A stretch of DNA of 38,960 bases from the IMG/VR virus record IMGVR_UViG_2061766007_000212; one strand, given 5' to 3'. Positions within the stretch are counted from its first letter, which is position 1. Each line of letters opens with the position of its first letter. Made by a program: the position numbers and the translations under genes. The notes under the pieces are model-generated. The model saw only the letters and a list, made by a program, of their open reading frames with translations, was not told the origin of the DNA and searched no databases. This DNA comes from an uncultured virus (IMG/VR IMGVR_UViG_2061766007_000212). Its lineage: Duplodnaviria > Heunggongvirae > Uroviricota > Caudoviricetes. Positions 1,285 through 15,078 of the stretch are shown here, piece after piece.

Positions 1285-1286
1285 TG

Positions 1287-1475
1287 TCAGTCCTCCTCGT
1301 CTTTCTTTAACGCTTCGCACTTGCGATGCCGTAATTCATCGAAAAGCATCCGCTGACATTCGTCATTCACGAACTTGCCTTGAGCGTATAACGGGCAACA
1401 TTTGCAGTTACGGTGACTTCCTTCTACCGGGCGGTAGCAGCAGAACATCGCCTGATAAAAAGTAGTATCTTTCAT
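1287..1475 (-). CDS. Small Cys-rich hypothetical protein
   Basis: Allele of 4050-4238. Confidence 0.65.
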   Translation of the reverse strand: MKDTTFYQAMFCCYRPVEGSHRNCKCCPLYAQGKFVNDECQRMLFDELRHRKCEALKKDEED

Positions 1476-1491
1476 TGTCAGNNNNNNNNNN

Positions 1492-1917
1492 TGCCGGGAT
1501 AACACGCATCCTCGGATGAGGAACCGGCAGGCTTCCGAAATATTCCCGGATTTCCTCGACCTTTTGCCAGTCCTTTGCATCAAGGTAATCGTTGGCGAAT
1601 ATCAGCCGCTTAACCTCGGTAGCTGCTTCCGTCCATTTATGCTTCTCGATTTCGTGCGTCTTCCATACTCGCAGTTCGATTCCTGCCGGGTGATAATCCG
1701 CAAATCCGCTTTGGCCGTCCGGGAAAGTAATCGAGTTGCCACCGATACCGTATTCTTCCTTCATAAATACCGCCAGTTCTTTGATTCCCAGGTTGCAGGA
1801 TGCGCAGTAGATACGCACCCTGCCGCCTTCAAATCCTGATCCTCGTCTGATCTGCGCTGTGAAGTGGCTTTCAACCTGTTCTGTCAGCAAGTCGAAGATT
1901 GAAAGCTGTTCCATCAT
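1492..1917 (-). CDS. Hypothetical protein with N-terminal QLSIF motif (allele)
   Basis: Nearly identical to 2362-2790; end at gap. Confidence 0.75.
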
Positions 1918-2043
1918 CCCGCTTCACNNNNNNNNNNATCCCGGTTCAGCCAGACGATGAACAGGTCAACCCCGCCCCTCATCAGTTCCGACCTTCCAGC
2001 GCAGACACCCTTCCGCATACCTTTACCGATGATCACCGGCAAA

Positions 2044-2262
2044 TCACATCTCCGCATATTCTTCCTCCCCGTCAGCACAGAACCAATCGTCTGATTGCAC
2101 TTTATTGTGATTCAGTTCGCATACGTTATAAAGAACATTCTCACCATCAGTAAAACAGTGTTTGCAATGCCGGCAGGTAACAAGCTCCATCTGCTTCAGT
2201 TCAATCGTTATCGCATCTTTCATCATCGGAATAAAAACCCATCCGTCAGGCAGTCTTGCCAT
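2044..2262 (-). CDS. Small Cys-rich phage protein
   Basis: LVTCRHCKHC...DDWFCADGE; upstream GAAGG. Confidence 0.7.
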   Translation of the reverse strand: MARLPDGWVFIPMMKDAITIELKQMELVTCRHCKHCFTDGENVLYNVCELNHNKVQSDDWFCADGEEEYAEM

Positions 2263-2361
2263 GCTATGACCTTCTTTCGCATTTATCGCCGTTTTTACGG
2301 CGATTTATTGTTGGCTGGATAAATACTCATCCTTGATACCGGACACGGGTAATTCGTGCGT

Positions 2362-2790
2362 TTACGCCGGAATAACACGCATCCTTGGATGAGGAACCGG
2401 CAGGCTTCCGAAATATTCCCGGATTTCTTCGACCTTTTGCCAGTCCTTTGCATCAAGATAATCGTTTGCGAATATCAGCCGCTTAACTTCGGTCGCTGCT
2501 TCCGTCCATTTATGCTTCTCAACTTCGTGCGTCTTCCATACTCGCAGTTCGATGCCGGCAGAATGATAATCCGCAAATCCGCTTTGACCGTCCGGGAAAG
2601 TGATCGAGTTGCCACCGATTCCGTATTCATCCTTCATGAATACCGCCAGTTCTTTAATCCCCAGGTTGCAGGATGCGCAGTAAATACGCACCCTGCCGCT
2701 TTCAAACCCTGATCCCCGTCTGATCTGCGCTGTGAAGTGGCTTTCAACCGGTTCTGTCAGCAAGTCGAAGATTGAAAGCTGTTCCATCAT
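2362..2790 (-). CDS. Hypothetical protein with QLSIF (beta-clamp-type) motif and GSGF/EYGIGG domain
   Basis: MMEQLSIFD; ATGA overlap with the initiator stop. Confidence 0.8.
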   Translation of the reverse strand: MMEQLSIFDLLTEPVESHFTAQIRRGSGFESGRVRIYCASCNLGIKELAVFMKDEYGIGGNSITFPDGQSGFADYHSAGIELRVWKTHEVEKHKWTEAATEVKRLIFANDYLDAKDWQKVEEIREYFGSLPVPHPRMRVIPA

Positions 2791-3503
2791 CCCGCTTCAC
2801 CTGCTTTCATGGCGGCGATTTCCTTTTCAAGGTCGCCAATCATTTCATCCTGTACCCCGGAATAATCCCGCTGCGGGAAGTCCTGGGCCGGAAGTACCTT
2901 CATCTGCGGTTTCTTCTTGCCGGCGCCTTTCAGGACGGCTTCCAGATAAGCAAGGGTCGGTGCGCCGTGCGTAGCGCATTCGTTAAACCCGGCGAGCAGT
3001 TTATCAAGGCCGTGATCAGCGTATAAGGCAATCAGCCTGGCACGGACTGTGTTGCTCATCTTAAAGCCGGCATCTTCTGCGGCGGTTAATACCCGGTCGT
3101 GTTCATGCTGGATTTCGGCGGCGGCTTCATCTTCTATAAATGATGCTTCTGTTTGGTTCTTATTATGTTCAGTTATAATTAAGTTATTATTATATTTGTC
3201 ACGTCCGTTATCATCCGTTAACGGGCGTTGACGGGCGTTATCATCCGTTTTCTTTTGTCCGATCCCTTTACGCCGGTTTTCGGAAGCCTGCTCGCACTTT
3301 TTCCGGTACGCTTCCTCCTGCTGGTCGATATCATCCCGGATAAAATCAAACGCAATGCTGATGCCGCCTGTCAGATCGGGAAGTTCGCCGTCCGCATGGT
3401 ACCTAATCAACGCCCGGATCAGGATGCCCATTTCTTCATCTGTCAGATTCGCCAGCTTTTGCAGGTACTTATCTTGACAGAAGAAACCTGACATTCTTGC
3501 CAT
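2787..3503 (-). CDS. Phage replication initiator, allele B
   Basis: LTDEEMGILIRALIRY N-terminus; C-terminal half almost identical to allele A. Confidence 0.8.
   Translation of the reverse strand: MARMSGFFCQDKYLQKLANLTDEEMGILIRALIRYHADGELPDLTGGISIAFDFIRDDIDQQEEAYRKKCEQASENRRKGIGQKKTDDNARQRPLTDDNGRDKYNNNLIITEHNKNQTEASFIEDEAAAEIQHEHDRVLTAAEDAGFKMSNTVRARLIALYADHGLDKLLAGFNECATHGAPTLAYLEAVLKGAGKKKPQMKVLPAQDFPQRDYSGVQDEMIGDLEKEIAAMKAGEAG
3160..3250. repeat. AT-rich tract plus iteron-like repeats (CGTTATCATCCGTT x2, ACGGGCGTT x2); probable origin in initiator B
   Basis: Read directly at ~3205-3250; AT-rich ~3160-3197. Confidence 0.7.
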
Positions 3504-3505
3504 GT

Positions 3506-3721
3506 TTACGCCACCCATCTATACCGGATATACCGGGTTATTTCGCCGTCTTCGTTCTTGCCGGTTTCCCATGTCCGGGAAATATGCTTCTTTACCCACG
3601 GTTCAATCTCGCCCAGCCGGGTAGAGATTTTTGTGATGTGCAGTTTTTCCATCGCTTCAATCGTGGTCAACCCTCCCGGGTTGTGCTGCAGATACATCAA
3701 GATTTTATCTGATTGCTTCAC
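3506..3721 (-). CDS. Small winged-HTH protein (HTH_39-like)
   Basis: ILMYLQ..GGLTTIEA...ITKISTRLGEI...RYIRY pattern. Confidence 0.75.
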   Translation of the reverse strand: MKQSDKILMYLQHNPGGLTTIEAMEKLHITKISTRLGEIEPWVKKHISRTWETGKNEDGEITRYIRYRWVA

Positions 3722-4047
3722 GGCTCGTTCCCTCCAAAATCAATGCATTCAGGATCAGCATCGGGATCTTCTTCCCAGTCATCGCAATGGTCGGTCAGCT
3801 CCCGGTCATCGGTATCCGGGTTATAGTAGGATTCATCGAGGTTATTCCAGTTCAGCGTGCAGGCTTCATGCTTCCAATCGAAGTTCATGCAGTTCCAGCA
3901 CCCGTCAGCAGGTTTTTCCTGAGGTTCCGGTTCTCCGCACTTGTCATGCATCCGGGCTTCATACTCGGAAAGGTAAACTGTCGGGTTATGGAAGTCGAAG
4001 TCGCTCATCGGTTCGTTGTCTTCGTCGTTATAGATATAATTCGGCAT
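3718..4047 (-). CDS. Acidic Cys-containing hypothetical protein
   Basis: Two conserved alleles; strong SD. Confidence 0.7.
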   Translation of the reverse strand: MPNYIYNDEDNEPMSDFDFHNPTVYLSEYEARMHDKCGEPEPQEKPADGCWNCMNFDWKHEACTLNWNNLDESYYNPDTDDRELTDHCDDWEEDPDADPECIDFGGNEP

Positions 4048-4049
4048 TG

Positions 4050-4238
4050 TCAGTCCTCCTCGTCTTTCTTTAACGCTTCGCACTTGCGATACCGTAATTC
4101 ATCGAAAAGCATCCGCTGGCATTCGTCATTTACGAACTTGCCTTGAGCGTATAGCGGGCAATATTTGCAGTTACGGTGACTTTCTTCTACCGGACGGTAG
4201 CAGCAGAACATCGCCTGATAAAAAGTAGTATCTTTCAT
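4050..4238 (-). CDS. Small Cys-rich hypothetical protein
   Basis: CC...CxxCPLY...C; AGGAGGACTGACAATG start. Confidence 0.7.
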   Translation of the reverse strand: MKDTTFYQAMFCCYRPVEESHRNCKYCPLYAQGKFVNDECQRMLFDELRYRKCEALKKDEED

Positions 4239-4250
4239 TGTCAGTCCTCC

Positions 4251-4754
4251 TTACAGATAGTTTTTTCTGAATATTTCCATCCATTCTTCGTGGCTGTGCC
4301 TGGCTTCAAAAGCGATCTGCGCAAGCCGTTTCAGCGAATCCCCTTTTTCCCGGTTGTATTGCGCTCCGTCCGTTCCGGTATGGCAGTCATGGCAAAGGTA
4401 AACCCATAATCCATACTTTTCGGATAACGGACGGTTCGCAACACCGCCGAGCACATGATGGCGTTCAAGCCCGGTCACCCTGCCGCAGAGGTAACAGCGT
4501 TCTCCNNNNNNNNNNTTGGATTCAAAAGCGATCTGCGCCAGCCGTTTAAGGGAATCCCCTTTTTCCCGGCTATACTGCGCTCCGTCCGTTCCTGTGTGGC
4601 AGTCATGGCAAAGATAAACCCATAAACCATACTTTTCGGATAACGGACGGTTCGCAACGCCGCCGAGAACGTGATGGCGTTCAAGCCCGGTCACCCTGCC
4701 GCAGAGGTAACAGCGTTCTCCGTTTTGCATGATGCTTTTGCTGGGCTTTGCCAC
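4251..4754 (-). CDS. HNH-type zinc nuclease (Ref-like); two overlapping allele fragments either side of a gap
   Basis: CYLCG...ERHHV..G...LCHDCH. Confidence 0.75.
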   Translation of the reverse strand: MAKPSKSIMQNGERCYLCGRVTGLERHHVLGGVANRPLSEKYGLWVYLCHDCHTGTDGAQYSREKGDSLKRLAQIAFESXXXXGERCYLCGRVTGLERHHVLGGVANRPLSEKYGLWVYLCHDCHTGTDGAQYNREKGDSLKRLAQIAFEARHSHEEWMEIFRKNYL

Positions 4755-5260
4755 TGGCGTTTCATCCTTTCCGTTTCTTCCGGGTATGTCGGGATTCCTA
4801 ACCCTTCAGCTTCTTGAACCAGAGAGTCTATTAAACGGCTCATTTGCCTGCTGTCGTATACGGATGAACCGTAATACAGGATCACGTTCGTGCAGCCGTC
4901 TATCCGGCTTTTCAGCGTGTCCGTCTGCCATCCGATGCCGTTCTTCTCCCAACCTTCCCGGAGCCGGTCAACGGCTTTATCCTGTACGCAGACCGTTGTG
5001 CTGACCCCGCCGATCTCCTTGATTGCGTGGCGGTAAACCTCTGACCGGCTGATCCCGGTCTTTTCGGCGATTTTGTCGATGATCACCCAGCAGTAAGCGT
5101 TCGCATCCCGGCTTTTCGCTTTGCTGGCCTTCTTGATCTCGACCTTGACCGCTTCACCTTTCAGGTCATCAAATATTTGTCCGGGGTTATCCCGGGTGGT
5201 GAACGACACCAGCCATTCACCACCGGATAACGGGAGAGCTTCCTTCAGCTTGCCGATCAT
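4691..5260 (-). CDS. NinB/Orf-like recombination mediator
   Basis: SRDANAYCW...IAEK...GSSVYDSRQMSRLIDSLVQEAEGLGI; next to the annealase. Confidence 0.7.
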   Translation of the reverse strand: MIGKLKEALPLSGGEWLVSFTTRDNPGQIFDDLKGEAVKVEIKKASKAKSRDANAYCWVIIDKIAEKTGISRSEVYRHAIKEIGGVSTTVCVQDKAVDRLREGWEKNGIGWQTDTLKSRIDGCTNVILYYGSSVYDSRQMSRLIDSLVQEAEGLGIPTYPEETERMKRQWQSPAKASCKTENAVTSAAG

Positions 5261-6108
5261 GCGGCACCACCCGCCGGAATGAACTTGCGGATGGCGGCAA
5301 ACACGTTCTTCGCTTCATCCATCGTCATGGATTTCCAGTTCGGTTTCTTCGGCAGGCTTCCGCTTTTCGCCAGCTCATCAGCCATGCCGACAATCTGCTT
5401 TTTCGCTTCATCGTAATCTGCGATACCCATTGTTTCCTGAATGTCGGAAATTTCGTTGCGGATGAAGTTAATCACTGTCGGCAACGTCTGCGCTTCCTTC
5501 GGCAGCTTGTCCGATGTGCTGACACTTCCGGGTGCATCCTGATTGATTGGTTTCACTTCCGGCGGTTCGTCATCCGGCTGTTCTGGCTTGTCCGGGGCTT
5601 CCTCACTGATCTCGCCCCAGCGGAAGCAGATTTTCCCGGTTTTCTGGTTCTTGATCTCGATGCCGGTGATCACGCCGTCTGTGTAGCCGATGCCCTTCAC
5701 CGTGAACCGGTCAAAGCAGGCAGGACGGCCACGGTTTTCGGTGATCGTGCAGTCCTTCGAACTGACCCAGATAAACGGGGCTGTGTACAGTTCACGACCG
5801 ATACCCCAGTTGAAGCAGGCACGTTTGAAAGAGTCGGAAGCAAGGCCCTTTTCTTTCTCGGTGTTGCTCTCGGTACCGGTGTCTTCCTTGCTGACCCACT
5901 CGCCGGTCTCCGGGTTCTTGATAGAAACGATGCAGTTGCGGTTATCCCGGGTATGCTCCCGCTTCCAGTTGAACGGGCCAACGACCTCATCGAGGATATT
6001 CTGATCGCACCGGGCATCCTTATAGAGCAGAAGGGAAAGCCCGTTTTCTTTGATCTGTGCAATGCGGCAGTCGATTTCGTCTGCTCGCAGGGTTCTGAAC
6101 ATATTCAT
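5257..6108 (-). CDS. Rad52/Sak-like ssDNA annealing protein, allele 1
   Basis: YKDARCDQNILDE..GP..W; KEDTG...EKGLASDSFKRACFNWGIGRELY. Confidence 0.85.
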   Translation of the reverse strand: MNMFRTLRADEIDCRIAQIKENGLSLLLYKDARCDQNILDEVVGPFNWKREHTRDNRNCIVSIKNPETGEWVSKEDTGTESNTEKEKGLASDSFKRACFNWGIGRELYTAPFIWVSSKDCTITENRGRPACFDRFTVKGIGYTDGVITGIEIKNQKTGKICFRWGEISEEAPDKPEQPDDEPPEVKPINQDAPGSVSTSDKLPKEAQTLPTVINFIRNEISDIQETMGIADYDEAKKQIVGMADELAKSGSLPKKPNWKSMTMDEAKNVFAAIRKFIPAGGAA

Positions 6109-6126
6109 TGAAAATTCTCCTTTCAC

Positions 6127-6155
6127 TTGCGGCCCGGAGAATCATGTGATACAAT
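6127..6155 (+). promoter_or_regulatory. Antisense sigma-A promoter for sRNA-1
   Basis: TTGCGG-17-TACAAT with TGTGn extended -10; identical at 9675-9703. Confidence 0.75.
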
Positions 6156-6161
6156 ATCTCC

Positions 6162-6222
6162 GGGTGGTTTGATTGATTGTCAGTCCTTCGAATTACCTGC
6201 CCGGCTGAAAAGCCGGTTTTTT
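6162..6222 (+). ncRNA. Putative small RNA (sRNA-1): seed hairpin plus intrinsic terminator
   Basis: 11-bp stem 6162-6172/6188-6198 with G-U pairs, loop TTGATTGTCAGTCCT; terminator CCGGCT-GAAA-AGCCGG-T6. Confidence 0.7.
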
Positions 6223-6364
6223 ATTTGCCTGCGTAATACCATGTGATATGCTGGTTCGCCATCGGGCAAACAACGTCCGGCGGGATCCTGTCATCGTAGA
6301 CAAGGTTCAGCACCGACAATACCATGACCGCCAGGATTGCCAGCCACATAATCACCTTCTGCAT
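6221..6364 (-). CDS. Small single-pass membrane protein
   Basis: MQKVIMWLAILAVMVLSVLNLV; allele at 9765-9908. Confidence 0.7.
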   Translation of the reverse strand: MQKVIMWLAILAVMVLSVLNLVYDDRIPPDVVCPMANQHITWYYAGK

Positions 6365-6368
6365 TTCC

Positions 6369-6671
6369 TCACCCCCTTCCAACGTTTTCAGCCAACTGGC
6401 GCAGGTCACATCCGAGGTCTTCCACCTTATAGATCATGTCCCGGATTTGCTTGTTCAGGTCCTTTGCGGTGTCGTAATCTTCCTCGAACTTCAGCAGCGC
6501 ATCCTCTGCGTTCAGCAGCAGGTCGACAATCTGATCCGTCAGTTTGTCGGCCTTCGCCAGTTCCTTTTCCTGCCGCTCGGTTTCTTCTTCAAAAGCGGAG
6601 TTATCTTCATACGGCGGCATACCGTACATTTCGGCTTCCCGGATATATGGAGCATCAGCAATCTGCGTCAT
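6369..6671 (-). CDS. Acidic coiled-coil hypothetical protein
   Basis: DAPYIREAEMYG; allele at 9913-10186. Confidence 0.7.
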   Translation of the reverse strand: MTQIADAPYIREAEMYGMPPYEDNSAFEEETERQEKELAKADKLTDQIVDLLLNAEDALLKFEEDYDTAKDLNKQIRDMIYKVEDLGCDLRQLAENVGRG

Positions 6672-6867
6672 CTTCCTCGGCCTCCTTCTCGATATCGACC
6701 TTCAGCGTATACTGGCTTTCCTCGCCGTCCTTCAGCGAAAACGCCCGTGATGCGGTTTCTGAAATGCTCATCGAAACATGGTCGATGGTTTCGTCATACA
6801 TCCTGACCACTCGCCGGATATCCTCCAGCAAACAACCGATGAGAAATTCACATTCCTGTCTGTTCAT
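6655..6867 (-). CDS. Hypothetical protein
   Basis: AAGGACTGACAATG start; coupled to neighbours. Confidence 0.65.
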   Translation of the reverse strand: MNRQECEFLIGCLLEDIRRVVRMYDETIDHVSMSISETASRAFSLKDGEESQYTLKVDIEKEAEEDDADC

Positions 6868-6869
6868 TG

Positions 6870-7097
6870 TCAGTCCTTCTTTCTCGGAACGATCACCCGT
6901 CCCGTGGTTTTTTTATGCAGGTTAACCCTGCGTTCTGCCGGGTTCCGTTCCCGGCTTTGTTCCCATTCAGCCAACGCCCAGGCCGGAGCCGTCAGCGGGT
7001 TTTCATAATGGAACATCTGCCGCAGATACTTCCGGGCGGTTTTCGCTGTGCAGCCATACCGTTCGGAAATATCGCTGACCTTCAGCAACCGTTCCAT
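6870..7097 (-). CDS. Excisionase-like HTH protein
   Basis: MERLLKVSDISERYGCTAKTARKYLR; follows the cro-like gene; partial allele 10467-10618. Confidence 0.6.
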   Translation of the reverse strand: MERLLKVSDISERYGCTAKTARKYLRQMFHYENPLTAPAWALAEWEQSRERNPAERRVNLHKKTTGRVIVPRKKD

Positions 7098-7099
7098 AT

Positions 7100-7315
7100 T
7101 TAACCCGCCTTTCGTTGTTTCCGCTCGACCGCTGCCCGGATCAGCGTTTCGCAGTCGCATCCAAGCACGCTGGCAACGGTCGGGATCTTCTCGGCCTTCG
7201 GGAAACAGGTTCCTTTTTCCCAACTAACCACCGTTCCCTGCGTTACGCCGCAGGCTTCCGCGACCTGCGTTTGAGTCATCTCCTTCATGACCCGGAGTTT
7301 CTTGATCAGGTTTAT
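7100..7315 (-). CDS. Cro-like XRE HTH protein, probable ATA start
   Basis: MTQTQVAEACGVTQGTVVSWEKG; AAGGAG lies 9 nt before an in-frame ATA. Confidence 0.8.
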   Translation of the reverse strand: MNLIKKLRVMKEMTQTQVAEACGVTQGTVVSWEKGTCFPKAEKIPTVASVLGCDCETLIRAAVERKQRKAG

Positions 7316-7349
7316 TGGAATCAGCTCCTTTCATTTGATGTCTAATAAT

Positions 7350-7390
7350 ATTATATGAAATATTCAAATAATGTCAATAGTTTTCCAATA
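7350..7390 (-). promoter_or_regulatory. Early promoter with operator-like site upstream of the cro-like gene
   Basis: TTGACA(7377-7372)-16-TATAAT(7355-7350); 22 bp identical to 14574-14595. Confidence 0.8.
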
Positions 7391-7399
7391 TTCATTCGG

Positions 7400-7428
7400 G
7401 AAAGAATACCGGGGATATACCGCCCCGG
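7400..7428 (-). terminator. Terminator-like hairpin ending the first early transcript
   Basis: CCGGGG-cggtatat-CCCCGG then TATTCTTT; equivalent hairpin at 8028-8047. Confidence 0.55.
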
Positions 7429-7434
7429 CTCGGT

Positions 7435-7599
7435 TCAGTGCTTCTTCATGAAGTAATAGTATTCGTCCTTCTGGCAGGAATGAGCATCAGCATAATAGCA
7501 TTGTGCGATCTTGTGGACCGCTTCTTTCTCCGTATCGTAAACACCAACGAAATCTTCTCTGCCGCTGGAAAGGTGCCGGTAATATACGTACCACATCAT
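7435..7599 (-). CDS. Small hypothetical protein (MMWYVY...YYFMKKH family)
   Basis: Not in ORF track; homologous to 8054-8221 and 10629-10765. Confidence 0.7.
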   Translation of the reverse strand: MMWYVYYRHLSSGREDFVGVYDTEKEAVHKIAQCYYADAHSCQKDEYYYFMKKH

Positions 7600-7835
7600 C
7601 ACACCTCCTGGTCCTCAACCCGGAAAACCTCTGCAATCCGATGCTCGAAGTTTGCACCGAACATTTCACGCATTTTGCTAATGGCTTCCACCCGGTTCTG
7701 CGCTTGGCAGGTGAACACTTTCCATTTCAGGTCGTGTCCATCAATAAAGCAGACTTTATAGGTTCCCGGTTCGTATTCTATGTATTTCCAGCGTTGCCGC
7801 CCGTGTCCCCATACTGCCCGGAAAGNNNNNNNNNN

Positions 7836-7923
7836 AAACCGTACCCTGCGTAACCCCGCAGGCCTTCGCGAGTTCGGCCTGTGTCATTTCGGCATTGATC
7901 CGAAGTTTCTTGATTCCGTTCAT
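7836..7923 (-). CDS. Second Cro-like XRE allele (5' fragment)
   Basis: MNGIKKLRINAEMTQAELAKACGVTQGTV, then gap. Confidence 0.75.
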
Positions 7924-8053
7924 CTTTTCACCCCCTTTGCGGAAAAATCTTTTTCTGATATTAGATATTATAATTGATTCGTCTGTTAATTTCAATATAT
8001 TTTCTAATAAATTCTGATATTTTTATGCCGGGGATATGCCGCCCCGGCTCGGT

Positions 8054-8221
8054 TCAGTGCTTCTTCATGAAGTAATAGTATTCGCCAAGCTGACCGAGGT
8101 CTTTATCAATGGCGTAGCATTTCGCAATATGTTTGATTGCAGCCTGCGGTGTTTCAAACGTCTGATTAACGCAATCATCCCGACCGCTGGCGATGATCCT
8201 GCAGTATACGTACCACATCAT
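8054..8221 (-). CDS. Small hypothetical protein (allele)
   Basis: MMWYVYCRIIASGRDD...YYFMKKH; AGGAGG SD. Confidence 0.7.
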   Translation of the reverse strand: MMWYVYCRIIASGRDDCVNQTFETPQAAIKHIAKCYAIDKDLGQLGEYYYFMKKH

Positions 8222-8287
8222 CACACCTCCTGTTCTATATATTTCCAGCGTTGCCGCCCGTGTCCCCATACTGCCCGNNNNNNNNNN

Positions 8288-8808
8288 ACTGGGCTTTGCC
8301 ACTGGCGTTTCATCCTTTCCGTTTCGTCCGGGTAGGTCGGGATGCCTAACCCTTCAGCTTCCTGCACCAGGGAATCAATTAACCGGCTCATTTGCTGGCT
8401 ATCGTATACGGATGAGCCGTAATACAGGATCACATTCGTGCAGCCGTCTATCCGGCTTTTGAGCGTGTCTGTCTGCCATCCGATACCGTTTTTCTCCCAG
8501 CCTTCCCGGAGCCGGTCAACGGCCTTGTCCTGAACGCATACCGTTGTTGAAACCCCGCCGATTTCCTTGATTGCGTGGCGGTAAACCTCGGACCTGCTGA
8601 TTCCGTTCTTTTCGGCGATCTTGTCGATGATTAGCCAGCAATAAGCGTTCGCATCCTTTGACCTCGCTTTGCTGGCCTTCTTGATCTCAACCTTGACCGC
8701 TTCGCCTTTCAGATCATCAAATATCTGCCCGGGGTTATCCCGGGTGGTGAAGGACACAAGCCATTCACCACCGGATAACGGGAGAGATTCCTTCAGCTTT
8801 CCGATCAT
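8288..8808 (-). CDS. NinB/Orf-like protein, allele 2 (3' end at gap)
   Basis: Near-identical to 4691-5260. Confidence 0.7.
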
Positions 8809-9656
8809 GCGGCACCACCTGCCGGCATCAGCTTACGGATAGCGGCGAAAACGTTCTTCGCCTCGTCCATGGTCAGGCTGTTCCACTTCGGCTTCTTCGG
8901 AAGGGTGCCGCTTTCAGCCAGCGTGTTCGCCATGTCAACGACCTGCTTTTTCGCATCATCGAAGGTTTCGATTCCGCAGAGTTCCTGAATATCGGCGATC
9001 TCGTTACGGATATAATTCATCACTGGGGAAAGGGTCTGCGCTTTTCCAGGCAGCTTGTCCGATGTGCTGACACTTCCGGGTGCATCCTGATTGATTGGTT
9101 TCACTTCCGGCGGTTCGTCATCCGGTTGTTCCGGCTTTTCCGGGGCTTCCTCGCTGATTTCGCCCCACTTAAAGCAGATTTTCCCGGTCGCCTGGTTTTT
9201 GATTTCAACGCCTGTGATCACGCCGTCCGTGTAGCCGATTCCCTTCACTGTGAACCGGTCATAGCAGGCAAGCCGTCCCCGGTTTTCCTTGATATTGCAG
9301 TCCGAAGCCTTGATCCAGATAAACGGGGCAGTGTACAATTCCCGTCCGATTCCCCAGTTGAAGCAGGCACGTTTGAAGCTGTCGGAAGCAAGGCCCTTTT
9401 CCTTCTCGGTGTTGCTTTCGGTTCCGGTGTCTTCCTTGCTGATCCACTGCTTGAGCTCTTCCGACCAGATGGAAACGATGCAGTTCCGGTTATCCCGGGT
9501 GTGTTCACGCTTCCAGAACATCGGGCCAACGGTTTCATCGAGGATATTCTGATCGCACCGGGCATCCTTGTAGAGCAGAAGGGAAAGCCCGTTTTCCTTG
9601 ATCTGTGCAATGCGGCAGTCGATTTCGTCTGCTCGCAGGGTTCTGAACATATTCAT
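8805..9656 (-). CDS. Rad52/Sak-like annealase, allele 2
   Basis: Same motifs as 5257-6108. Confidence 0.85.
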   Translation of the reverse strand: MNMFRTLRADEIDCRIAQIKENGLSLLLYKDARCDQNILDETVGPMFWKREHTRDNRNCIVSIWSEELKQWISKEDTGTESNTEKEKGLASDSFKRACFNWGIGRELYTAPFIWIKASDCNIKENRGRLACYDRFTVKGIGYTDGVITGVEIKNQATGKICFKWGEISEEAPEKPEQPDDEPPEVKPINQDAPGSVSTSDKLPGKAQTLSPVMNYIRNEIADIQELCGIETFDDAKKQVVDMANTLAESGTLPKKPKWNSLTMDEAKNVFAAIRKLMPAGGAA

Positions 9657-9709
9657 TGAAAATTCTCCTTTCACTTGCGGCCCGGAGAATCATGTGATAC
9701 AATATCTCC

Positions 9710-9766
9710 GGGTGGTTTGTTGTCAGTCCTTCAAGTTGCCCTCCCGGCTGAATAGCCGGGGTTTTT
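9710..9766 (+). ncRNA. Putative sRNA-1, allele 2
   Basis: Stem GGGTGGTTTG/CAAGTTGCCC, loop TTGTCAGTCCTT; terminator CCCGGCT-GAAT-AGCCGGG-GTTTTT; same promoter. Confidence 0.7.
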
Positions 9767-10182
9767 ATTTTCCTGCGTAATACCATTCGATATGCTGGTT
9801 CGCCATCGGGCAAACAACGTCAGGCGGGATCCTGTCATCGTAAACAAGGTTCAGCACCGCCAATACCATCACCGCCAGGATTGCCAGCCACATAATCACC
9901 TTCTGCATTTCTTTACCCCCTTTCAACGTTTTCAGCCAGCCGGCGCAGGTCGCATCCGAGGTCTTCCACCTTATAGATCATGTCCCGGATCTGCTTATTC
10001 AGGTCCTTTGCGGTGTCGTAATCTTCCTCGAACTTCAGCAGCGCATCNNNNNNNNNNNNNNNNNNNNNNNNNNNNNNNNNNNNNNNNNNNNNNNNNNNNN
10101 NNNNNNNNNNNNNNNNNNNNNNNGTCTTCATACGGCGGCATCCCGTACATTTCGGCTTCCCGGATATAGGGAGCATCAGCAA

Positions 10183-10464
10183 TCATGCAGACACCTCTTC
10201 TCCGGCCTTCACGGGGATAAAGTCAAAAGAACCGTCTGCGTTGTAGTACACCCCATCAACCCTCATGCTTCCATCGCCGAAAACATGGCAAGACAGGATT
10301 TCCGCATCATCTTTTCCGTCTTCCTCATGAACCGCCCTGAAATCAAGGCACCCGTCGATGGTATAAAAATTAATGTGGTTGATATTCTGATCAAACAGTT
10401 TCACAAATGCTTCGATCCCCTTCATCATATTGATCAGGGTCATTTCCATTTCCTTACGTGTCAT
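10183..10464 (-). CDS. Hypothetical protein occupying the slot of 6655-6867
   Basis: GGGACTGACAATG start, after the xis-like allele. Confidence 0.7.
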   Translation of the reverse strand: MTRKEMEMTLINMMKGIEAFVKLFDQNINHINFYTIDGCLDFRAVHEEDGKDDAEILSCHVFGDGSMRVDGVYYNADGSFDFIPVKAGEEVSA

Positions 10465-11555
10465 TGTCAGTCCCTCTTTCTCGGAACGATCACCCGTTCC
10501 GTGGTTTTTCTGTGCAGGTTAACCCTGCGTTCTGCCGGGTTATGTTCCCGGCTCTGTTCCCATTCCTTCAACGCCCAGGCCGGAGCCGTCAGCGGGTTTT
10601 CATAATGGAACATCTGCCNNNNNNNNNNTAGTGCTTCTTCATGAAATAATAGTATTCGCCAAGCTGACCGAGGTCTTTATCAATGGCGTAACACTTCGCA
10701 ATATGCTTGATTGCGGCCTGCGGTGTTTCAAACGTCTGATTAACGCAATCATCCCTGCCGCTGGCNNNNNNNNNNNNNNNNNNNNNNNNNNNNNNNNNNN
10801 NNNNNNNNNNNNNNNNNNNNNNNNNNNNNNNNNNNNNNNNNNNNNNNNNNNNNNNNNNNNNNNNNNNNNNNNNNNNNNNNNNNNNNNNNNNNNNNNNNNN
10901 NNNNNNNNNNNNNNNNNNNNNNNNNNNNNNNNNNNNNNNNNNNNNNNNNNNNNNNNNNNNNNNNNNNNNNNNNNNNNNNNNNNNNNNNNNNNNNNNNNNN
11001 NNNNNNNNNNNNNNNNNNNNNNNNNNNNNNNNNNNNNNNNNNNNNNNNNNNNNNNNNNNNNNNNNNNNNNNNNNNNNNNNNNNNNNNNNNNNNNNNNNNN
11101 NNNNNNNNNNNNNNNNNNNNNNNNNNNNNNNNNNNNNNNNNNNNNNNNNNNNNNNNNNNNNNNNNNNNNNNNNNNNNNNNNNNNNNNNNNNNNNNNNNNN
11201 NNNNNNNNNNNNNNNNNNNNNNNNNNNNNNNNNNNNNNNNNNNNNNNNNNNNNNNNNNNNNNNNNNNNNNNNNNNNNNNNNNNNNNNNNNNNNNNNNNNN
11301 NNNNNNNNNNNNNNNNNNNNNNNNNNNNNNNNNNNNNNNNNNNNNNNNNNNNNNNNNNNNNNNNNNNNNNNNNNNNNNNNNNNNNNNNNNNNNNNNNNNN
11401 NNNNNNNNNNNNNNNNNNNNNNNNNNNNNNNNNNNNNNNNNNNNNNNNNNNNNNNNNNNNNNNNNNNNNNNNNNNNNNNNNNNNNNNNNNNNNNNNNNNN
11501 NNNNNNNNNNNNNNNNNNNNNNNNNNNNNNNNNNNNNNNNNNNNNNNNNNNNNNN

Positions 11556-11903
11556 TTCACGCATTTTGTTATAGTATGTATTGATATTAAATATCTTTTC
11601 TTTCGCTGATTTATCCATATGCAGGTAATCTCTTTCTGAAATCATGATTCGATACTGCCTTTTAAGTTTCGTTAGCTGATATCTAATACCATACTCATTC
11701 AGCACCGACGCAACCTTTGTCATTTCAAAAATGCGTTTTTCATCATCCATTAAGAAATACTGCCCATAGTTCATACCGCCATTAAGTCCGTTCCAATAGC
11801 CCGGCCTGTAGCGGCTTTCCTGACAGATGTATTTTTCACCATCGCACAGCACTTCAACCTTAACATTCTTCGCATTATCAGGTAATTCAACAGTAAATAG
11901 CAT
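11556..11903 (-). CDS. Hypothetical protein (3' end in gap)
   Basis: Open frame of ~115 codons; GGAGG SD. Confidence 0.6.
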
Positions 11904-12185
11904 TCATTTCACCTCCGCAAACTCAAATACAGGCGTTCCGTCAACGTGAACCGTGCAGATATCGAACAGGCCGTAAGCGGCCCAGTCGCAACCTTTTCCC
12001 TTTACATAACGCCCGATGCACTCACAGTAAATGCTATTACTGTCGGCTCCTGCATCCTTGAACTCCTGACCGGAAGCAATATTGCCGCATTTCGGGCACT
12101 TAAACTTCCAGTCCTCAATGAATTTACCGAATAACCTTTCTCCTTCGGTACGCCACTCTCTCAACGTATACTTCTTATCTTCCAT
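11904..12185 (-). CDS. VVA0879-like zinc-binding protein
   Basis: EW..EGERLFG...WKFKCPKCG...CIGRY..GCDWAAYGLF; partial allele 13634-13789. Confidence 0.75.
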   Translation of the reverse strand: MEDKKYTLREWRTEGERLFGKFIEDWKFKCPKCGNIASGQEFKDAGADSNSIYCECIGRYVKGKGCDWAAYGLFDICTVHVDGTPVFEFAEVK

Positions 12186-12731
12186 GTCAGTCCTTCCTTT
12201 CTGCCGGGTTACAATGCCACCCGGCGGGGCGTGTCGTTTATCCGTAAATATCCTTCAGCAATTTGNNNNNNNNNNACCCTTCATACCCGTATACAAAGAT
12301 GCTGTTTTTCTTCTTCGTATCCCGGATCACGCAGTTCCCGTTTTCGTACTTCTCATAGATGAAAGCCTGACCGTTCAGCAGGAANNNNNNNNNNGAAAGA
12401 AAGTATAATCTCCGTGGAAAGGACAGTCTGGTTCACCGTCAAACTCGTTATTGCAAGCTGAGCAAAGGTGTGGTTCTCTGTCTTCCATCGGGTTTGTATC
12501 CTTCCATAACCTTCCTTCTGGGTCTTCATATACTGGGCGATCCCATGAATCAATACCTTTGAAAGTAAGTATCATATTTCTNNNNNNNNNNCTCACCGTC
12601 AAAATCGTTATTGCAAGCAGAGCAAAGGTTTGGTTCTGTATCTTCCATCGGGTTTGTATCCTTCCATAATCGTCCTTCTGGGTCTTCATACACTGGGCGA
12701 TCCCATGAATCAATACCTTTGAAAGTAAGTA

Positions 12732-12950
12732 TCATATTTCTTCCTCCTTCATCAATTCATACCCGAACTGCCTGACCGTCCGTTTCAGTCCTTCGTAGCC
12801 GTATACGTAAATCTGGTTTTTCTTCTTCGTGTCCCGGATCACGCAGTTGCCGTTTTCGTACTTCTCATAGACGAAAGCCTGACCGTTCAGCAGGAAGCCG
12901 TTTCCGGGGAAAAGCTGGGTCAGCTTGCCGTTATTCATGGTTATCTGCAT
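12732..12950 (-). CDS. Small hypothetical protein
   Basis: MQITMNNGKLTQLFPGNGF; allele fragment at 12276-12384. Confidence 0.6.
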   Translation of the reverse strand: MQITMNNGKLTQLFPGNGFLLNGQAFVYEKYENGNCVIRDTKKKNQIYVYGYEGLKRTVRQFGYELMKEEEI

Positions 12951-13405
12951 CGGGATCCTCCTTGAACGGGTCATCGTACTTGTAAGCGTTCATCACATCC
13001 CAGTTATGACCAACAGGTGCCGAAAGCGAATACCGCCCGGATAATTTGTATTCGCAGTAATCCTCAATGGCGGTGACCACATCCTTGAAGGTCAGGCACC
13101 AATCGTCAGGTTCGCCAACGTGGTAATTTCCCCCGTCAGCCATCTTTGCGAAAACCCTACGGCCTTGAATCATCGCCGGGAGTTTCCGGATAAGGNNNNN
13201 NNNNNTCTGCCGCAAGCTGATTGCTTACAAGGTCGGTAACGTTCTTTTCGATTGCTTCATTGTCAATTTCAATAGTGATTTTCATTGTCAGTCCTCCTTA
13301 AACGGGTCATNNNNNNNNNNATGGAAATTGCCGCCATCTGCCATTCTTGCGAAAACCCTACGGCCTTGAATCATCGCCGGGAGTTTCCGGATAAGGTCTG
13401 CATGG

Positions 13406-13633
13406 TCAATCTTCATCTTGATCCTCCTCAAACACGAACGGGTCTTCATACGGGCAGGTTCCACGGGATTTCATGATATGCTCCTGCACCGCAACGAAAC
13501 TGCGGTATTCATAGATGAAATGCCCGTCCTCTCCACCGTACAACCGCCAGTAATTGCCGACACGCTGGAAACAGAACTTGCGGTCATGCGTGTAAAAGAC
13601 TTCGGAGATGCCGCCCAATTCCTGCCAGGTCAT
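13406..13633 (-). CDS. Small hypothetical protein
   Basis: GGAGG SD; abuts the VVA0879-like allele. Confidence 0.6.
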   Translation of the reverse strand: MTWQELGGISEVFYTHDRKFCFQRVGNYWRLYGGEDGHFIYEYRSFVAVQEHIMKSRGTCPYEDPFVFEEDQDED

Positions 13634-13927
13634 TCATTCCACCTCCGCAAACTCAAATACGGGCGTTCCGTCAACGTGAACAGTGCAGATATCAAACAGG
13701 CCATAAGCGGCCCAATCACAGCCTTTTCCTTTTACGTACCGCCCGATGCACTCACAGTAAATGCTATTACTGTCGGCTCCTGCATCCTTNNNNNNNNNNN
13801 NNNNNNNNNNNNNNNNNNNNNNNNNNNNNNNNNNNNNNNNNNNTCCTGTGATTCTTCGCAAGCAACCAATACTTTCATGTTGCATCCTTTCTGCCGGGTT
13901 ACAACGCCACCCGGCGGGGCGTGTCGT

Positions 13928-14140
13928 TTATCCGTAAATATCCTTCAGCAATTTGCCGCATACTGCGGATTTGACTGCATCGAAATATTTCTGATCACTG
14001 AACAGTTTGTAATATCCGATGAAATTAACGAACGTTTTCTTTTCCTCATCGGTGAAGCAGGATAAGATTGCTTCTCTTTCAATATCACTGCCGTGAAGAT
14101 AACGGCTTGCTACGGCGAATGCCTGTTCTGTCTGCGTCAT
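13928..14140 (-). CDS. Small hypothetical early protein
   Basis: MTQTEQAFAVASRYLHGSDIER; start seen in two alleles. Confidence 0.65.
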   Translation of the reverse strand: MTQTEQAFAVASRYLHGSDIEREAILSCFTDEEKKTFVNFIGYYKLFSDQKYFDAVKSAVCGKLLKDIYG

Positions 14141-14253
14141 GCAGCCTTCCTCCTTTCCTTCCATTCCTTCAGCTTCCGTTCGTTCTCCCGCTCNNNNNNN
14201 NNNGCTGCCGTGGAGATAACGGCTCGCAACGGCGAATGCCTGTTCTGTCTGCG

Positions 14254-14349
14254 TCATGCCGCCTTCCTCCTTTCCTTCCATTCCTTCAGCTTCCGTTCGT
14301 TCTCCCGCTCAATCTGGCGGTGAATCTTCAGCCGTTCCTTCATGCTCAT
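14254..14349 (-). CDS. First gene of the early operon; 31-aa basic peptide
   Basis: MSMKERLKIHRQIERENERKLKEWKERRKAA; AAGGAAGGACTGACAAATG start; ATGA coupling. Confidence 0.6.
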   Translation of the reverse strand: MSMKERLKIHRQIERENERKLKEWKERRKAA

Positions 14350-14554
14350 TTGTCAGTCCTTCCTTTCGATGTTTATAAGTGGGGAAGGCTTCTCAGTGAT
14401 GTTATCCGGATCACTTACCCCGGTAATTGTTCGCCGGGTTCGCTTTGAAGTCGTAACCTGTCCGGTTTACCCCTCGCTGGCGTTGCTTACGCTGTCTGGG
14501 CTTATCGGGCTGTCCCTCGCCTTCCCCTGTCGGCCAATTTCTTGGCTCAATTCT

Positions 14555-14651: not shown

Positions 14652-15078
14652 ATGGATGATATTATCCGCAACCTTCGCAAGCGGCATTACCTCACGCAGG
14701 CCGAGTTTGCAAAAAAAGTCGGCGTTACGCAGGGAACGGTCAGCCAGTGGGAACACGGGATCATCAGCCCGAACTCAAACCAGTTGCGATCCATTTCNNN
14801 NNNNNNNGAAAAAGGTCGGCGTTACGCAGGGAACAGTCAGCCAATGGGAACACGGGATCATCAGCCCGAACTCAAACCAGTTGCGATCCATTTCTGAAGC
14901 CTTCGGTGTTTCGATTGATTCGCTGGTCGGGAAAAGCACACGGGATGAATACGTAAAGTTAAGCGATATCGAATATAGATTGATAACGGCCTTCCGGGAT
15001 GCGGATAGTTCGACACGGGAAAACGCAATGATCATTCTCGAAAACAGCGCACTTAAAAAAGGCGCAATAGCAGGATAA
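14652..15078 (+). CDS. CI-like XRE repressor (HTH duplicated across a gap)
   Basis: IRNLRKRHYLTQAEFAKKVGVTQGTVSQWEHG; divergent from the early operon, upstream of the integrase. Confidence 0.85.

What the first reader, a model, noticed from the sequence alone, without database searches (positions are those of the whole stretch)
6127..6222. Phage small RNA whose exposed loop matches the ribosome-binding sites of many early genes
Seen: a plus-strand promoter (TTGCGG-17-TACAAT, extended -10) sits upstream of the annealase gene and points against the early operon. It is followed by a hairpin and a terminator, giving ~60 nt. The loop is UUGAUUGUCAGUCCU here and UUGUCAGUCCUU in allele 2 (9710-9766). 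The 3' stem strand differs between alleles (CGAAUUACCU vs CAAGUUGCCC) yet every pair is retained, and the G-U pairs work only on the plus strand. The loop is the complement of the AGGACUGACA(A)UG motif at nine gene starts, with up to 14 nt of perfect match (6176-6189 vs 6866-6879). These two loci are the only copies I found that are not at a start codon. Inference: a trans-acting anti-RBS RNA co-represses a regulon of early genes, as a second immunity layer or a timing device. Known analogues are P1 c4, P4 CI and P22 sar RNAs, which act on one locus or a few sites rather than a dispersed shared RBS.
Basis: partly seen in the sequence, partly recalled or inferred. Interest (0 to 1): 0.92.

Follow-up and report, generated by a model that had tools for sequence, protein, structure and literature searches.

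The report
Phage small RNA mirroring early ribosome sites
A family of cattle-gut phages carries a gene for a tiny RNA whose exposed loop is the mirror image of a private tag on the ribosome-binding sites of several of the phage's own early genes, and loop and tag change together between phage lineages, so the RNA probably holds those genes' translation down.

Summary
At 6128-6222 (+) there is an extended -10 promoter, a G/U-rich hairpin and an intrinsic terminator, giving an RNA of about 62 nt antisense to the early operon. A variant lies at 9676-9766. The loop complements AGGACTGACA(A)TG at 8 gene starts (not 9; about 6-7 are distinct, because the window is an N-gapped scaffold of co-assembled strain variants).

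I found the same unit in 26 IMG/VR contigs. The promoter elements and the 17-nt spacing are kept while the spacer sequence diverges. The stem covaries, the terminators are swapped, and the loop sequence is conserved.

There are at least five loop types, each with the matching tag at gene starts of the same phage:
- A: GGACTGAC
- B: GGGCTAAC
- C: GGGCTAATC
- D: GGGCGAAC
- E: GGGCCARC

In each phage scanned, the loop's best trans matches are gene starts. No locus with two or more tags lacks the RNA.

Expression, repression and the biological role (immunity or timing) remain untested.

The closest published analogue of the tags is the start-associated sequences of cluster K mycobacteriophages, whose partner is still unknown. 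The unit matches no Rfam family.

The parts
6128..6155 (+). Promoter of the small RNA: -35 TTGCGG (6128-6133), 17-nt spacer, extended -10 TG (6147-6148) + TACAAT (6150-6155)
   Evidence: Read. Not listed by the consensus scanner (-35 matches only 3 of 6). The same geometry (TTGCGN-like -35, 17 or 18 nt, TGnTAnAAT-like -10) is kept in the 21 sequences printed (spacer 18 nt in L229, L233 and L266), while the spacer sequence diverges.
6162..6224 (+). Predicted small RNA, allele 1 (about 62 nt; start inferred from the -10 box, end from the terminator)
   Evidence: No transcript data.
6161..6199 (+). Hairpin: stem 6161-6172 / 6188-6199; 15-nt loop 6173-6187 (TTGATTGTCAGTCCT) carrying the anti-tag seed
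   Evidence: z -4.80 on +, -0.95 on -. Stem covariation in the family.
6201..6222 (+). Intrinsic terminator: stem-loop 6201-6216 and T-run 6217-6222, plus-strand only
   Evidence: One search lists it. Relatives have different terminator hairpins at the same place.
9676..9766 (+). Allele 2 of the same unit: promoter 9676-9703, hairpin 9710-9741 (loop 9720-9731 TTGTCAGTCCTT), terminator 9742-9766
   Evidence: covariance model 49.4 bits, E 2e-12.
6868..6877 (-). Tag AGGACTGACA at the start of a 70-aa early gene (ATG at 6867); its TGA is the stop codon of the upstream 75-aa gene
   Evidence: duplex -23.9 kcal/mol against a background of -6.4, sd 2.8.
10465..10474 (-). Tag GGGACTGACA at the start of a 93-aa gene (ATG at 10464); its upstream sequence duplicates that of 6868
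4239..4248 (-). Tag at the start of a 62-aa Cys-rich gene (ATG at 4238)
4048..4057 (-). Tag at the start of a 109-aa gene (ATG at 4047); the scaffold duplicate of this junction is at 1285-1294
1285..1294 (-). Tag at the start of a 114-aa gene (ATG at 1284), duplicate of 4048-4057
12185..12194 (-). Tag overlapping the ATG (12185) of a 93-aa gene
13286..13295 (-). Tag at the start of a gene (ATG at 13285) that is interrupted by an N-run
14351..14360 (-). Tag at the start of a 31-aa basic peptide gene (ATG at 14349), next to the divergent repressor/integrase module
5257..6108 (-). Erf-like annealase gene; its ribosome site (6112-6120) abuts the small RNA's -35 box
   Evidence: phrog_14970 4e-77; phrog_1097 Erf-like 4e-17.
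6221..6364 (-). 47-aa hydrophobic small protein gene; its stop codon lies under the end of the small RNA's terminator T-run
6870..7097 (-). 75-aa conserved early protein (no family hit), used to find relatives; its stop codon lies inside the tag
7350..7377 (-). Consensus promoter (TTGACA-16-TATAAT) upstream of the Cro-like HTH gene 7100-7288; likely early promoter of this variant

Best explanation
This is the gene for a 53-76-nt small RNA, transcribed from its own extended -10 promoter antisense to the phage's early operon. The RNA is a single hairpin followed directly by an intrinsic terminator. The hairpin loop carries a conserved seed (UUGUCAGUCCUU here). The seed is complementary to a private tag that spans the Shine-Dalgarno core, the spacer (often the upstream gene's stop codon) and the first bases of the start codon of 2-8 genes per phage (GAAGGACUGACAAUG here).

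I infer that loop-to-tag pairing (11-14 bp, about -20 to -24 kcal/mol) blocks 30S binding, and possibly invites double-strand cleavage. The tagged genes would then be held down together. The RNA is also perfectly complementary to the early polycistronic mRNA at its own locus.

Shown by computation: the anatomy, the family, the conservation pattern, and the matching of loop type to tag type.

Inferred: transcription, repression, and the role. For the role I lean slightly towards a type-specific immunity or exclusion function. My reason is that related phages carry at least five different matched loop/tag pairs, which looks like diversifying selection. A timing shut-off is not excluded.
For: Gene anatomy. 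The promoter boxes keep a constant 17-nt (three cases 18-nt) spacing and the TG extension in the 21 sequences printed, while the spacer sequence diverges. The predicted start falls at the base of the hairpin. Several unrelated terminator hairpins, each followed by a T-run, sit at the same place.

Hairpin. In a gapless alignment of 14 distinct A/B sequences, 80.3% of cells pair, against 37-58% when the partner is slid. The covariation score is 0.340 against 0.212 shuffled (2 of 500 shuffles reach it). Six of 10 pairs change on both sides. The plus strand folds better than the minus strand.

Loop under trans constraint. Ten of 12 loop columns are invariant across those 14 sequences, although the stems diverge. 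An RNA acting only in cis would need no fixed loop sequence.

Targets in the window. The best sites for the loop over both strands, after its own antisense copies, are the eight tagged gene starts, apart from one internal Erf-coding site that scores -23.0 with the allele-1 loop. None lies in the late genes.

Covariation of loop and tag.
- Strict 8- or 9-mers at gene starts: A-loop phages have 17 A, 1 B and 1 E; B-loop phages have 50 B and 1 A, which is probably spurious.
- Types C, D and E: the top trans hits of each loop in its own phage are gene starts.
- Whole record G002: GGGCGAAY occurs 8 times forward and 0 reverse, 5 of them at starts.
- The junction behind the same conserved 75-aa gene reads GGACTGAC in A phages and GGGCTAAC in B phages.
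- Energy matrix: each loop is most enriched on its own type.

Association. Every locus with two or more tags has the RNA. Among 80 Erf-gene relatives, only the 2 with the RNA belong to this group, and none of the other 78 has two or more tags.
Against: - No transcript evidence: no RNA run is on record and the one laying of contigs was uninformative (see Tried and rejected).
- The -35 box is weak (3 of 6) and the scanner does not call the promoter.
- The loop types follow phage clades, so the number of independent switches is small (at least four). Concerted change through recombination at junctions is not excluded.
- Specificity is imperfect. The C, D and E loops also score on 0.9-2.8% of B-type start regions, against 6-8% on their own type. 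L085 has one B tag in an A phage.
- Only about a fifth of early genes carry the tag.
- In type C part of the seed sits in the top of the stem.
- In type C the CI-like repressor's ribosome site carries the tag, which does not fit a simple immunity layer.
- Ribosomes ending translation at the stop codon inside the tag could strip the RNA off.
Confidence: 0.6

Rival explanations
1. The RNA is real but acts only in cis, like lambda OOP. It pairs with the early polycistronic mRNA at its own locus, causing cleavage, or its promoter interferes with early transcription. This would uncouple the recombination genes from the upstream genes. On this view the likeness to the tags is a relic of its origin from a gene junction.
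For: It is perfectly complementary to the early mRNA by construction. The site always lies just upstream of the next gene's ribosome site. An inverted repeat flanking the -10 box in several lineages could form a 5' hairpin on the downstream mRNA fragment (sequences; not tested).
Against: A cis-only RNA needs no fixed loop sequence, yet 10 of 12 loop positions are invariant while the stems diverge. The loop also tracks the tag type of distant genes in five types.
Confidence: 0.15
2. The tag is a gene-junction cassette (ribosome site, stop, start) that spreads and is homogenised by recombination between mosaic phages. The orphan copy under the RNA is simply one more copy, so loop and tag match without any pairing function.
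For: Similarity between window variants breaks exactly at the start codon: 6864-7021 matches 10461-10618, but the genes downstream differ. The gene just downstream of the RNA is swapped between Erf, a phrog_11717 protein and a Mu Gam-like protein. The TGA/TAA in the tag serves as the stop codon at 4 of the 8 window junctions. The phages encode recombinases.
Against: This does not explain the conserved antisense promoter, the plus-strand-only hairpin with covariation, or the terminators. The orphan copy shares only the core with the junctions, yet it always has the phage's own type.
Confidence: 0.12
3. The RNA is real, but its main targets lie outside the phage, in host mRNAs or other mobile elements. 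The phage's own tags are then secondary.
For: Phage small RNAs that act on host genes are known (review PMC12197685, sections 2 and 4 read). The host genome is not available for a check.
Against: The tags are private. There is 1 junction-like copy in 0.49 Mb of unrelated loci, and the loop co-varies with the phage's own tags.
Confidence: 0.08
4. There is no RNA gene: chance promoter-like and terminator-like sequences around a decayed gene start.
For: The scanner does not call the promoter, and there is no expression evidence.
Against: The whole unit is kept in 26 contigs with covarying stems and conserved box spacing. The covariance model gives E 2e-12 to 4e-9 for relatives.
Confidence: 0.03
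5. It is the antitoxin RNA of a type I toxin-antitoxin pair, with the 47-aa hydrophobic peptide gene (6221-6364) as toxin.
For: The small hydrophobic gene is convergent with the RNA and is kept in L085, L087 and L239.
Against: The overlap with the peptide gene is only its stop codon. G001 and L228 have non-hydrophobic genes at that place. The loop matches many other genes.
Confidence: 0.02

Closest known systems
Start-associated sequences (SAS) of cluster K mycobacteriophages (Pope et al. 2011, PMC3203893; passages read)
   Same: Both are short asymmetric repeats that include the Shine-Dalgarno core. Both lie a few bases upstream of the start codons of a subset of non-structural genes, in one orientation, sometimes contain the upstream gene's stop codon, and are absent from the host. 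That paper leaves open whether an RNA or a protein binds them. A 2025 paper still calls their role unverified (PMC12699233, passages read).
   Different: The sequence (GGGATAGGAGCCC) and the host phylum differ, and no partner has been identified there. Here a cognate antisense small RNA with a co-varying loop is identified. There is no counterpart of the 17-bp inverted repeats (ESAS).
c4 antisense RNA of phages P1 and P7 (Rfam C4; mechanism from my own knowledge, papers not read)
   Same: It is a small phage RNA whose exposed loops pair with sites covering a ribosome-binding site. P1 and P7 differ in matched loop/target sequences, which gives different immunity specificities. That parallels the loop/tag types found here.
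   Different: As I recall it, c4 is cut out of the same transcript as its target and acts on one operon. Here the RNA has its own promoter, is antisense to the operon, and matches many dispersed genes. There is no Rfam match.
Lambda OOP RNA and P22 sar RNA (review PMC12197685, section 2 read)
   Same: These are short RNAs with their own promoter and terminator, transcribed against an early or immunity operon of a temperate phage.
   Different: OOP and sar each act on the single gene they overlap (cII; the ant ribosome site). Here the overlapped site is an orphan tag with no gene behind it, and the matching sites are elsewhere.
C-rich-loop small RNAs of Firmicutes that pair with Shine-Dalgarno sequences (e.g. 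RsaE; from my own knowledge, not read)
   Same: A hairpin loop with a CCC/UCC seed pairs with the G-rich ribosome sites of several mRNAs.
   Different: Those are host RNAs with short generic seeds. Here the seed extends over the spacer and start codon of a private phage tag and co-varies with it.

Membership tests
Rfam families (any, including C4, OOP, sar) | Match to a curated covariance model | tested here: not met
   There are 0 matches at gathering score over the window. The best sub-threshold hit on 5900-6500 is PsrR1, 17.6 bits against a threshold of 42, E 1.1.
c4-type anti-RBS immunity RNA | Exposed loops complementary to target sites that cover a ribosome-binding site | tested here: met
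   The loop complements the Shine-Dalgarno-to-start region at 8 window gene starts.
c4-type anti-RBS immunity RNA | Processed from the same transcript as its targets (feature recalled, not read) | tested here: not met
   It has its own promoter and runs opposite to the operon.
c4-type anti-RBS immunity RNA | Matched loop/target variants between related phages (heteroimmunity; recalled) | tested here: met
   Five matched loop/tag types were found. An effect on immunity is not testable here.
Cis-antisense RNA of OOP/sar kind | Own promoter and terminator, antisense within an early operon | tested here: met
Cis-antisense RNA of OOP/sar kind | The overlapped stretch is the regulated gene's coding end or ribosome site | tested here: not met
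   The overlapped tag has no start codon and no conserved frame; allele 1 has 5 extra bases. The overlap with the upstream gene is its stop codon only.
Start-associated sequences (SAS-like tag) | Asymmetric repeat within a few bases of the start codons of a subset of genes, in one orientation | tested here: met
   Nine exact copies, all on the minus strand, 7 of them at starts. In relatives the tags lie on the mRNA-sense strand, 0-5 nt from the start codon.
Start-associated sequences (SAS-like tag) | Restricted to non-structural genes | tested here: met
   All window copies lie at 1285-14360; there are none in the late region 18.8-38.9 kb.
Start-associated sequences (SAS-like tag) | Consensus GGGATAGGAGCCC of cluster K phages | tested here: not met
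   The tags here are GGACTGAC, GGGCTAAC and related sequences. This is an analogue, not a member.
Trans-acting seed small RNA | The transcript exists | not testable with these tools
   No RNA run holds the locus. Contigs cannot show a transcript.
Trans-acting seed small RNA | Conserved unpaired seed, variable scaffold, intrinsic terminator, several complementary targets | tested here: met
Type I toxin-antitoxin | A small hydrophobic toxin gene always paired with the RNA, with extended overlap | tested here: not met
   The neighbouring gene is not hydrophobic in G001 and L228. The overlap is about 3 nt.

The most novel reading that the evidence does not exclude
These phages run a programmable translational regulon. 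One tiny RNA reads a private start-site tag on a chosen set of the phage's own genes. Related phages have diversified into at least five matched RNA/tag specificities, which would act as translational immunity groups. If so, this supplies the long-missing partner for start-associated sequences. It also predicts that an RNA carrying the tag's complement exists in cluster K mycobacteriophages. One place to look is the single opposite-orientation SAS copy, not at a gene start, that Pope et al. noted in four phages.
Probability: 0.4. Interest if true: 0.9.

Novelty: new variant of a known kind. Interest (0 to 1): 0.8.

Why it matters
Repeated start-site tags in phage genomes have been known since 2011, but nothing that reads them has been identified. 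A 2025 paper still calls their role unverified. Here a candidate reader is identified: a small RNA whose loop matches the tag and changes with it. The idea can be tested directly with reporters and compensatory mutations.

It would extend phage antisense control from one locus (c4, sar, OOP) to a dispersed regulon chosen by a short tag. The several matched types suggest a new axis of phage-phage specificity. The pairs could also serve as orthogonal translational switches.

My searches found no paper holding these motif strings in a phage context and no such RNA in a 2025 review of phage small RNAs (sections 2 and 4 read). Only the held library was searched.

Tried and rejected
Expression.
- No RNA holder is listed for 5257-7300. 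Twenty runs are listed, and the best holders are bovine gut metagenomes.
- I laid two runs guessed to be RNA and two DNA runs, all as contigs. This cannot show a transcript. It showed only that the locus recurs in other bovine gut runs, mostly with the shorter allele-2-type loop and with C at 6132.

Collection scans.
- The window's own genome is not held.
None of the fetched loci is homologous by blastn. That scan was wasted.
- The genome-contig scan gave 2 matches, in a Leptospiraceae and a Winogradskyella assembly. Neither has the RNA signature or tags.
- Cultured phage records contain no homologue of the RNA, only chance terminator matches. The annealase region gave weak DNA hits to a Ruminococcus phage and a faecal phage.
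- A scan with the 70-aa target protein found only the two contigs already known.

Candidates set aside.
- L243 (loop GGACTAAC-like) has a -10 box and a terminator but no convincing hairpin and no tags in 9.4 kb. I did not count it.
- L270/L271 have a candidate hairpin RNA with another loop, but only one weak start-site match. I did not count them.

Methods dropped.
- Wobble-tolerant regular expressions for the tag types were too permissive to tell the types apart. I used strict words and energy scans instead.

Ideas rejected.
- A protein reader of the tag (like T4 RegA or RegB, recalled) with the RNA as decoy: the RNA carries the complement of the tag, not the tag.
- The tag as an extended match to the 16S rRNA 3' end (recalled sequence): only the GGAGG/GAAAGGA part could pair.
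- A short ORF starting at the orphan tag: there is no start codon, and the frame differs between the alleles.
- My first impression that the L085/L087 gene downstream of the RNA is a Sak/Rad52-type annealase: it hits only phrog_11717, of unknown function.

Full report
**What the window is**

The window is a scaffold from a bovine gut metagenome; the best holders of 5257-7300 are bovine gut runs. It has 33 runs of N and many internal duplicates of 88-97% identity that flank those gaps. For example, 4741-6503 matches 8289-10047 at 88%.

It encodes a temperate phage:
- a minus-strand early operon with a Cro-like HTH gene (7100-7288), an Erf-like annealase (5257-6108), NinB/Orf, an HNH endonuclease and replication genes;
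- a plus-strand repressor (14656-15078) and integrase (15086-16249).

The two 'alleles' of the finding are most simply two co-assembled phage variants. Every other contig examined holds one copy.

**The observation**

- -35 TTGCGG at 6128-6133, then a 17-nt spacer;
- TG at 6147-6148 and TACAAT at 6150-6155;
- a hairpin of 6161-6172 paired with 6188-6199, with the 15-nt loop TTGATTGTCAGTCCT;
- a terminator stem-loop at 6201-6216 and a T-run at 6217-6222.

The plus strand folds at -27.5 kcal/mol (z -4.80) and the minus strand at -12.2 (z -0.95). Allele 2 gives -23.5 (z -2.94) and -17.8 (z -2.72). The consensus scanner lists the terminator but not the promoter, because the -35 matches only 3 of 6.

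AGGACTGACA occurs 14 times at up to one mismatch, against 1.57 expected. Nine copies are exact, all on the minus strand. Seven exact copies and one one-mismatch copy sit at gene starts. That makes eight, not nine, and about six or seven are distinct once scaffold duplicates are set aside. The two exact copies that are not at a start are the two hairpin loops.

At four of the eight starts the TGA inside the motif is the stop codon of the upstream gene. The late genes use ordinary ribosome sites without the motif.

In an energy scan of both strands, the best sites for the loop after its own antisense copies are these eight starts. They score -20 to -24 kcal/mol against a background mean of -6.4 (sd 2.8). 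One internal site in the Erf coding sequence also scores -23.0 with the allele-1 loop.

**Finding relatives**

- Among 80 relatives of the annealase gene, only two carry the unit.
- Exact-pattern scans of IMG/VR found three contigs.
- The family opened up through the conserved 75-aa early protein at 6870-7097 and through a pattern joining the -10 box to the loop (16 of 25 hits are true members).

In all, 26 IMG/VR contigs carry the unit. Of 29 relatives of the 75-aa protein:
- 23 have the RNA 460-720 nt downstream;
- four end less than 420 nt downstream;
- two have only a doubtful candidate.

Nothing turned up in the genome collection or in cultured phages. My metagenome scan was wasted on too loose a pattern.

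**Is it an RNA gene?**

Across the 21 sequences printed:
- The -35 (TTGCGN, TTGTGT, TTGACC or TTGATT), the 17-nt (three cases 18-nt) spacing and the TGnTAnAAT-like -10 are kept, while the spacer sequence is free.
- The predicted start falls at the foot of the hairpin.
- A terminator follows directly, giving 53-76 nt.
- The terminator hairpins are of several unrelated sequences.

The stem varies widely, for example GGGUGGUUUG/CAAGUUGCCC, GGAAAUAG/CAAUUUCC and UGAAAGUUG/CAAUUUUCA. In a gapless alignment of 14 distinct A/B sequences (allele 1 left out because of its 5-nt loop insertion):
- 80.3% of cells pair, against 37-58% in slid controls;
- the covariation score is 0.340 against 0.212 shuffled (2 of 500 shuffles reach it);
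- 6 of 10 pairs change on both sides.

By contrast, 10 of the 12 loop columns are invariant. An antisense RNA that worked only on its own locus would not need a fixed loop, because any change is mirrored in the target. The frozen loop therefore points to a partner encoded elsewhere. No Rfam family matches.

**Do loop and tag change together?**

Yes. The window, L085, L087 and L237 have loop UUGUCAGUCCUU and tags GGACTGAC. Sixteen contigs, including the complete phage G001, have UUGUUAGCCCUU and tags GGGCTAAC.

- Strict counts at gene starts: A-loop phages have 17 A, 1 B and 1 E. B-loop phages have 50 B and 1 A, which is probably a spurious start call.
- The junction behind the same conserved 75-aa gene reads ...AAGGACTGACAATG in A phages and ...AGGGGCTAAC(A/G)ATG in B phages. 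Orthologous sites have therefore changed along with the loop.
- In G001 the loop's two best trans sites genome-wide are the two tagged starts (-22.2 and -22.0; the next best is -17.7). The window-type loop hits neither.

Three further types follow the same rule:

| Type | Loop | Tags at gene starts | Loci |
|---|---|---|---|
| C | UUGAUUAGCCCUC | GAGGGCT(A/G)ATCA(A)ATG | L259, L260, L262, L263; L257 is C-like |
| D | GAGUUCGCCCUC | GAGGGCGAAC; in record G002 8 forward, 0 reverse, 5 at starts | L258 (G002) |
| E | GGAGUUGGCCCUCC | GGAGGGCCA(A/G)C | L264 (G003) |

In a pooled energy test over candidate start regions, each loop is most enriched on its own type:

| Loop | Own type | Comparison |
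|---|---|---|
| A | 13 of 315 | 5 of 1047 on B |
| B | 43 of 1047 | 1 of 315 on A |
| C | 13 of 203 | 22 of 1047 on B |
| D | 4 of 51 | 9 of 1047 on B |
| E | 3 of 49 | 29 of 1047 on B |

Specificity is real but not absolute, because the types share the GGAGGGC part.

Every held locus with two or more tags on one strand has the RNA on the other strand. In 0.49 Mb of unrelated loci there is one junction-like copy.

**Caveats**

- The types follow clades, and several contigs are near-identical (L224, L225, L238 and L240 share one RNA; L222 and L227 share another). The number of independent switches is at least four, not dozens.
- Concerted change by recombination at junctions cannot be excluded. 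These phages are mosaic exactly at such junctions, and the gene just downstream of the RNA is swapped between Erf, a phrog_11717 protein and a Mu Gam-like protein.
- That rival does not explain the antisense promoter, the plus-strand hairpin or the terminators.

**Mechanism**

I commit to a trans-acting anti-ribosome-site RNA. The loop pairs with the Shine-Dalgarno core, spacer and start of the tagged genes and blocks initiation. It may also trigger cleavage at gene boundaries.

The anatomy, the family and the loop/tag matching are shown by computation. Transcription, repression and the role are inferred.

The tagged genes are mostly small proteins of unknown function. They also include a winged-helix protein, the annealase in some type B phages (L214, L225), and the first small gene next to the lysogeny module.

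The existence of several matched types looks like diversifying selection. This favours a role in conflict between related phages, that is, type-specific immunity or exclusion by a resident prophage. Against a simple immunity layer, the CI-like repressor's own ribosome site carries the tag in type C. An early-to-late shut-off is equally possible.

**Comparison with what is known**

The tags resemble the start-associated sequences of cluster K mycobacteriophages. Those are 13-bp asymmetric repeats, 11-19 per genome, lying 3-7 bp before the starts of non-structural genes. Their partner, 'either RNA or protein', was left open in 2011, and a 2025 paper still calls their role unverified.

The RNA works like P1/P7 c4 in pairing loops with ribosome sites and in having matched variants (recalled). 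It is laid out like lambda OOP or P22 sar. It is a member of none of these families. It has no Rfam match, it has its own promoter, it is antisense to the operon, its overlapped site is an orphan, and its targets are dispersed.

A 2025 review of phage small RNAs lists no case of this kind in the two sections I read. A text search for the motif strings found nothing relevant.

Earlier unchecked notes of this scan describe similar loop/tag pairs in other uncultured phages. I did not test them, and they are not support for this locus.

Noticed in passing
window 1-38960: The window is a scaffold with 33 N-runs. Stretches on either side of many gaps are 90-98% identical tandem copies (e.g. 4301-4505 / 4517-4721, 12433-12581 / 12593-12741), and larger blocks recur at offsets of 2750-3600 nt. 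It looks like co-assembled strain variants rather than one genome.
   Followed up: partly
window 6134-6165; also L228, L214, L233, G001 at the same place: An inverted repeat flanks the -10 box of the small RNA promoter, and its sequence differs between lineages: window CCCGGAGA/TCTCCGGG, L228 CCCGGCTC/GAGCCGGG, L214 CCGCTGT/ACAGCGG, L233 ATGAC/GTCAT. It could be an operator, or a 5' hairpin on the downstream mRNA.
   Followed up: no
L262 3246-3656 (-), L260 3223-3660 (-), L263 702-1136 (-): In type C phages the divergent CI-like HTH_3 repressor gene has a ribosome site (GGGGGCTGATCAAATG) that also pairs with the small RNA loop. The RNA may therefore touch the lysogeny switch itself.
   Followed up: partly
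window 5257-6108; L087 2629-3330; L239 6461-6970: The gene immediately downstream of the small RNA promoter is replaced between relatives: an Erf-like annealase, a phrog_11717 protein of unknown function, or a Mu Gam-like protein. The RNA unit stays in place.
   Followed up: partly
window 6172-6178: Allele 1 has 5 extra bases in the loop (a tandem TTGA-type duplication). Contigs of other bovine gut runs show the shorter form, and C instead of G at 6132 in the -35 box.
   Followed up: partly
window 7350-7377 (-): A perfect consensus promoter (TTGACA-16-TATAAT) lies upstream of the Cro-like gene. It is probably the early promoter of one of the co-assembled variants.
   Followed up: no
window 6864-7021 vs 10461-10618: Similarity between the two variants ends exactly at the start codon behind the tag, and the genes downstream (70 aa and 93 aa) are unrelated. 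The tag marks a mosaic boundary.
   Followed up: partly
L270 about 4600-4690 (-), L271: More distant relatives have a candidate promoter-hairpin-terminator RNA with a different loop (CUUUGCCCUU), but only one weak start-site match. This may be a further type.
   Followed up: partly
PMC3203893 (cluster K mycobacteriophages): [quoted passage not shown] This is worth checking as a possible source of an anti-SAS RNA.
   Followed up: no
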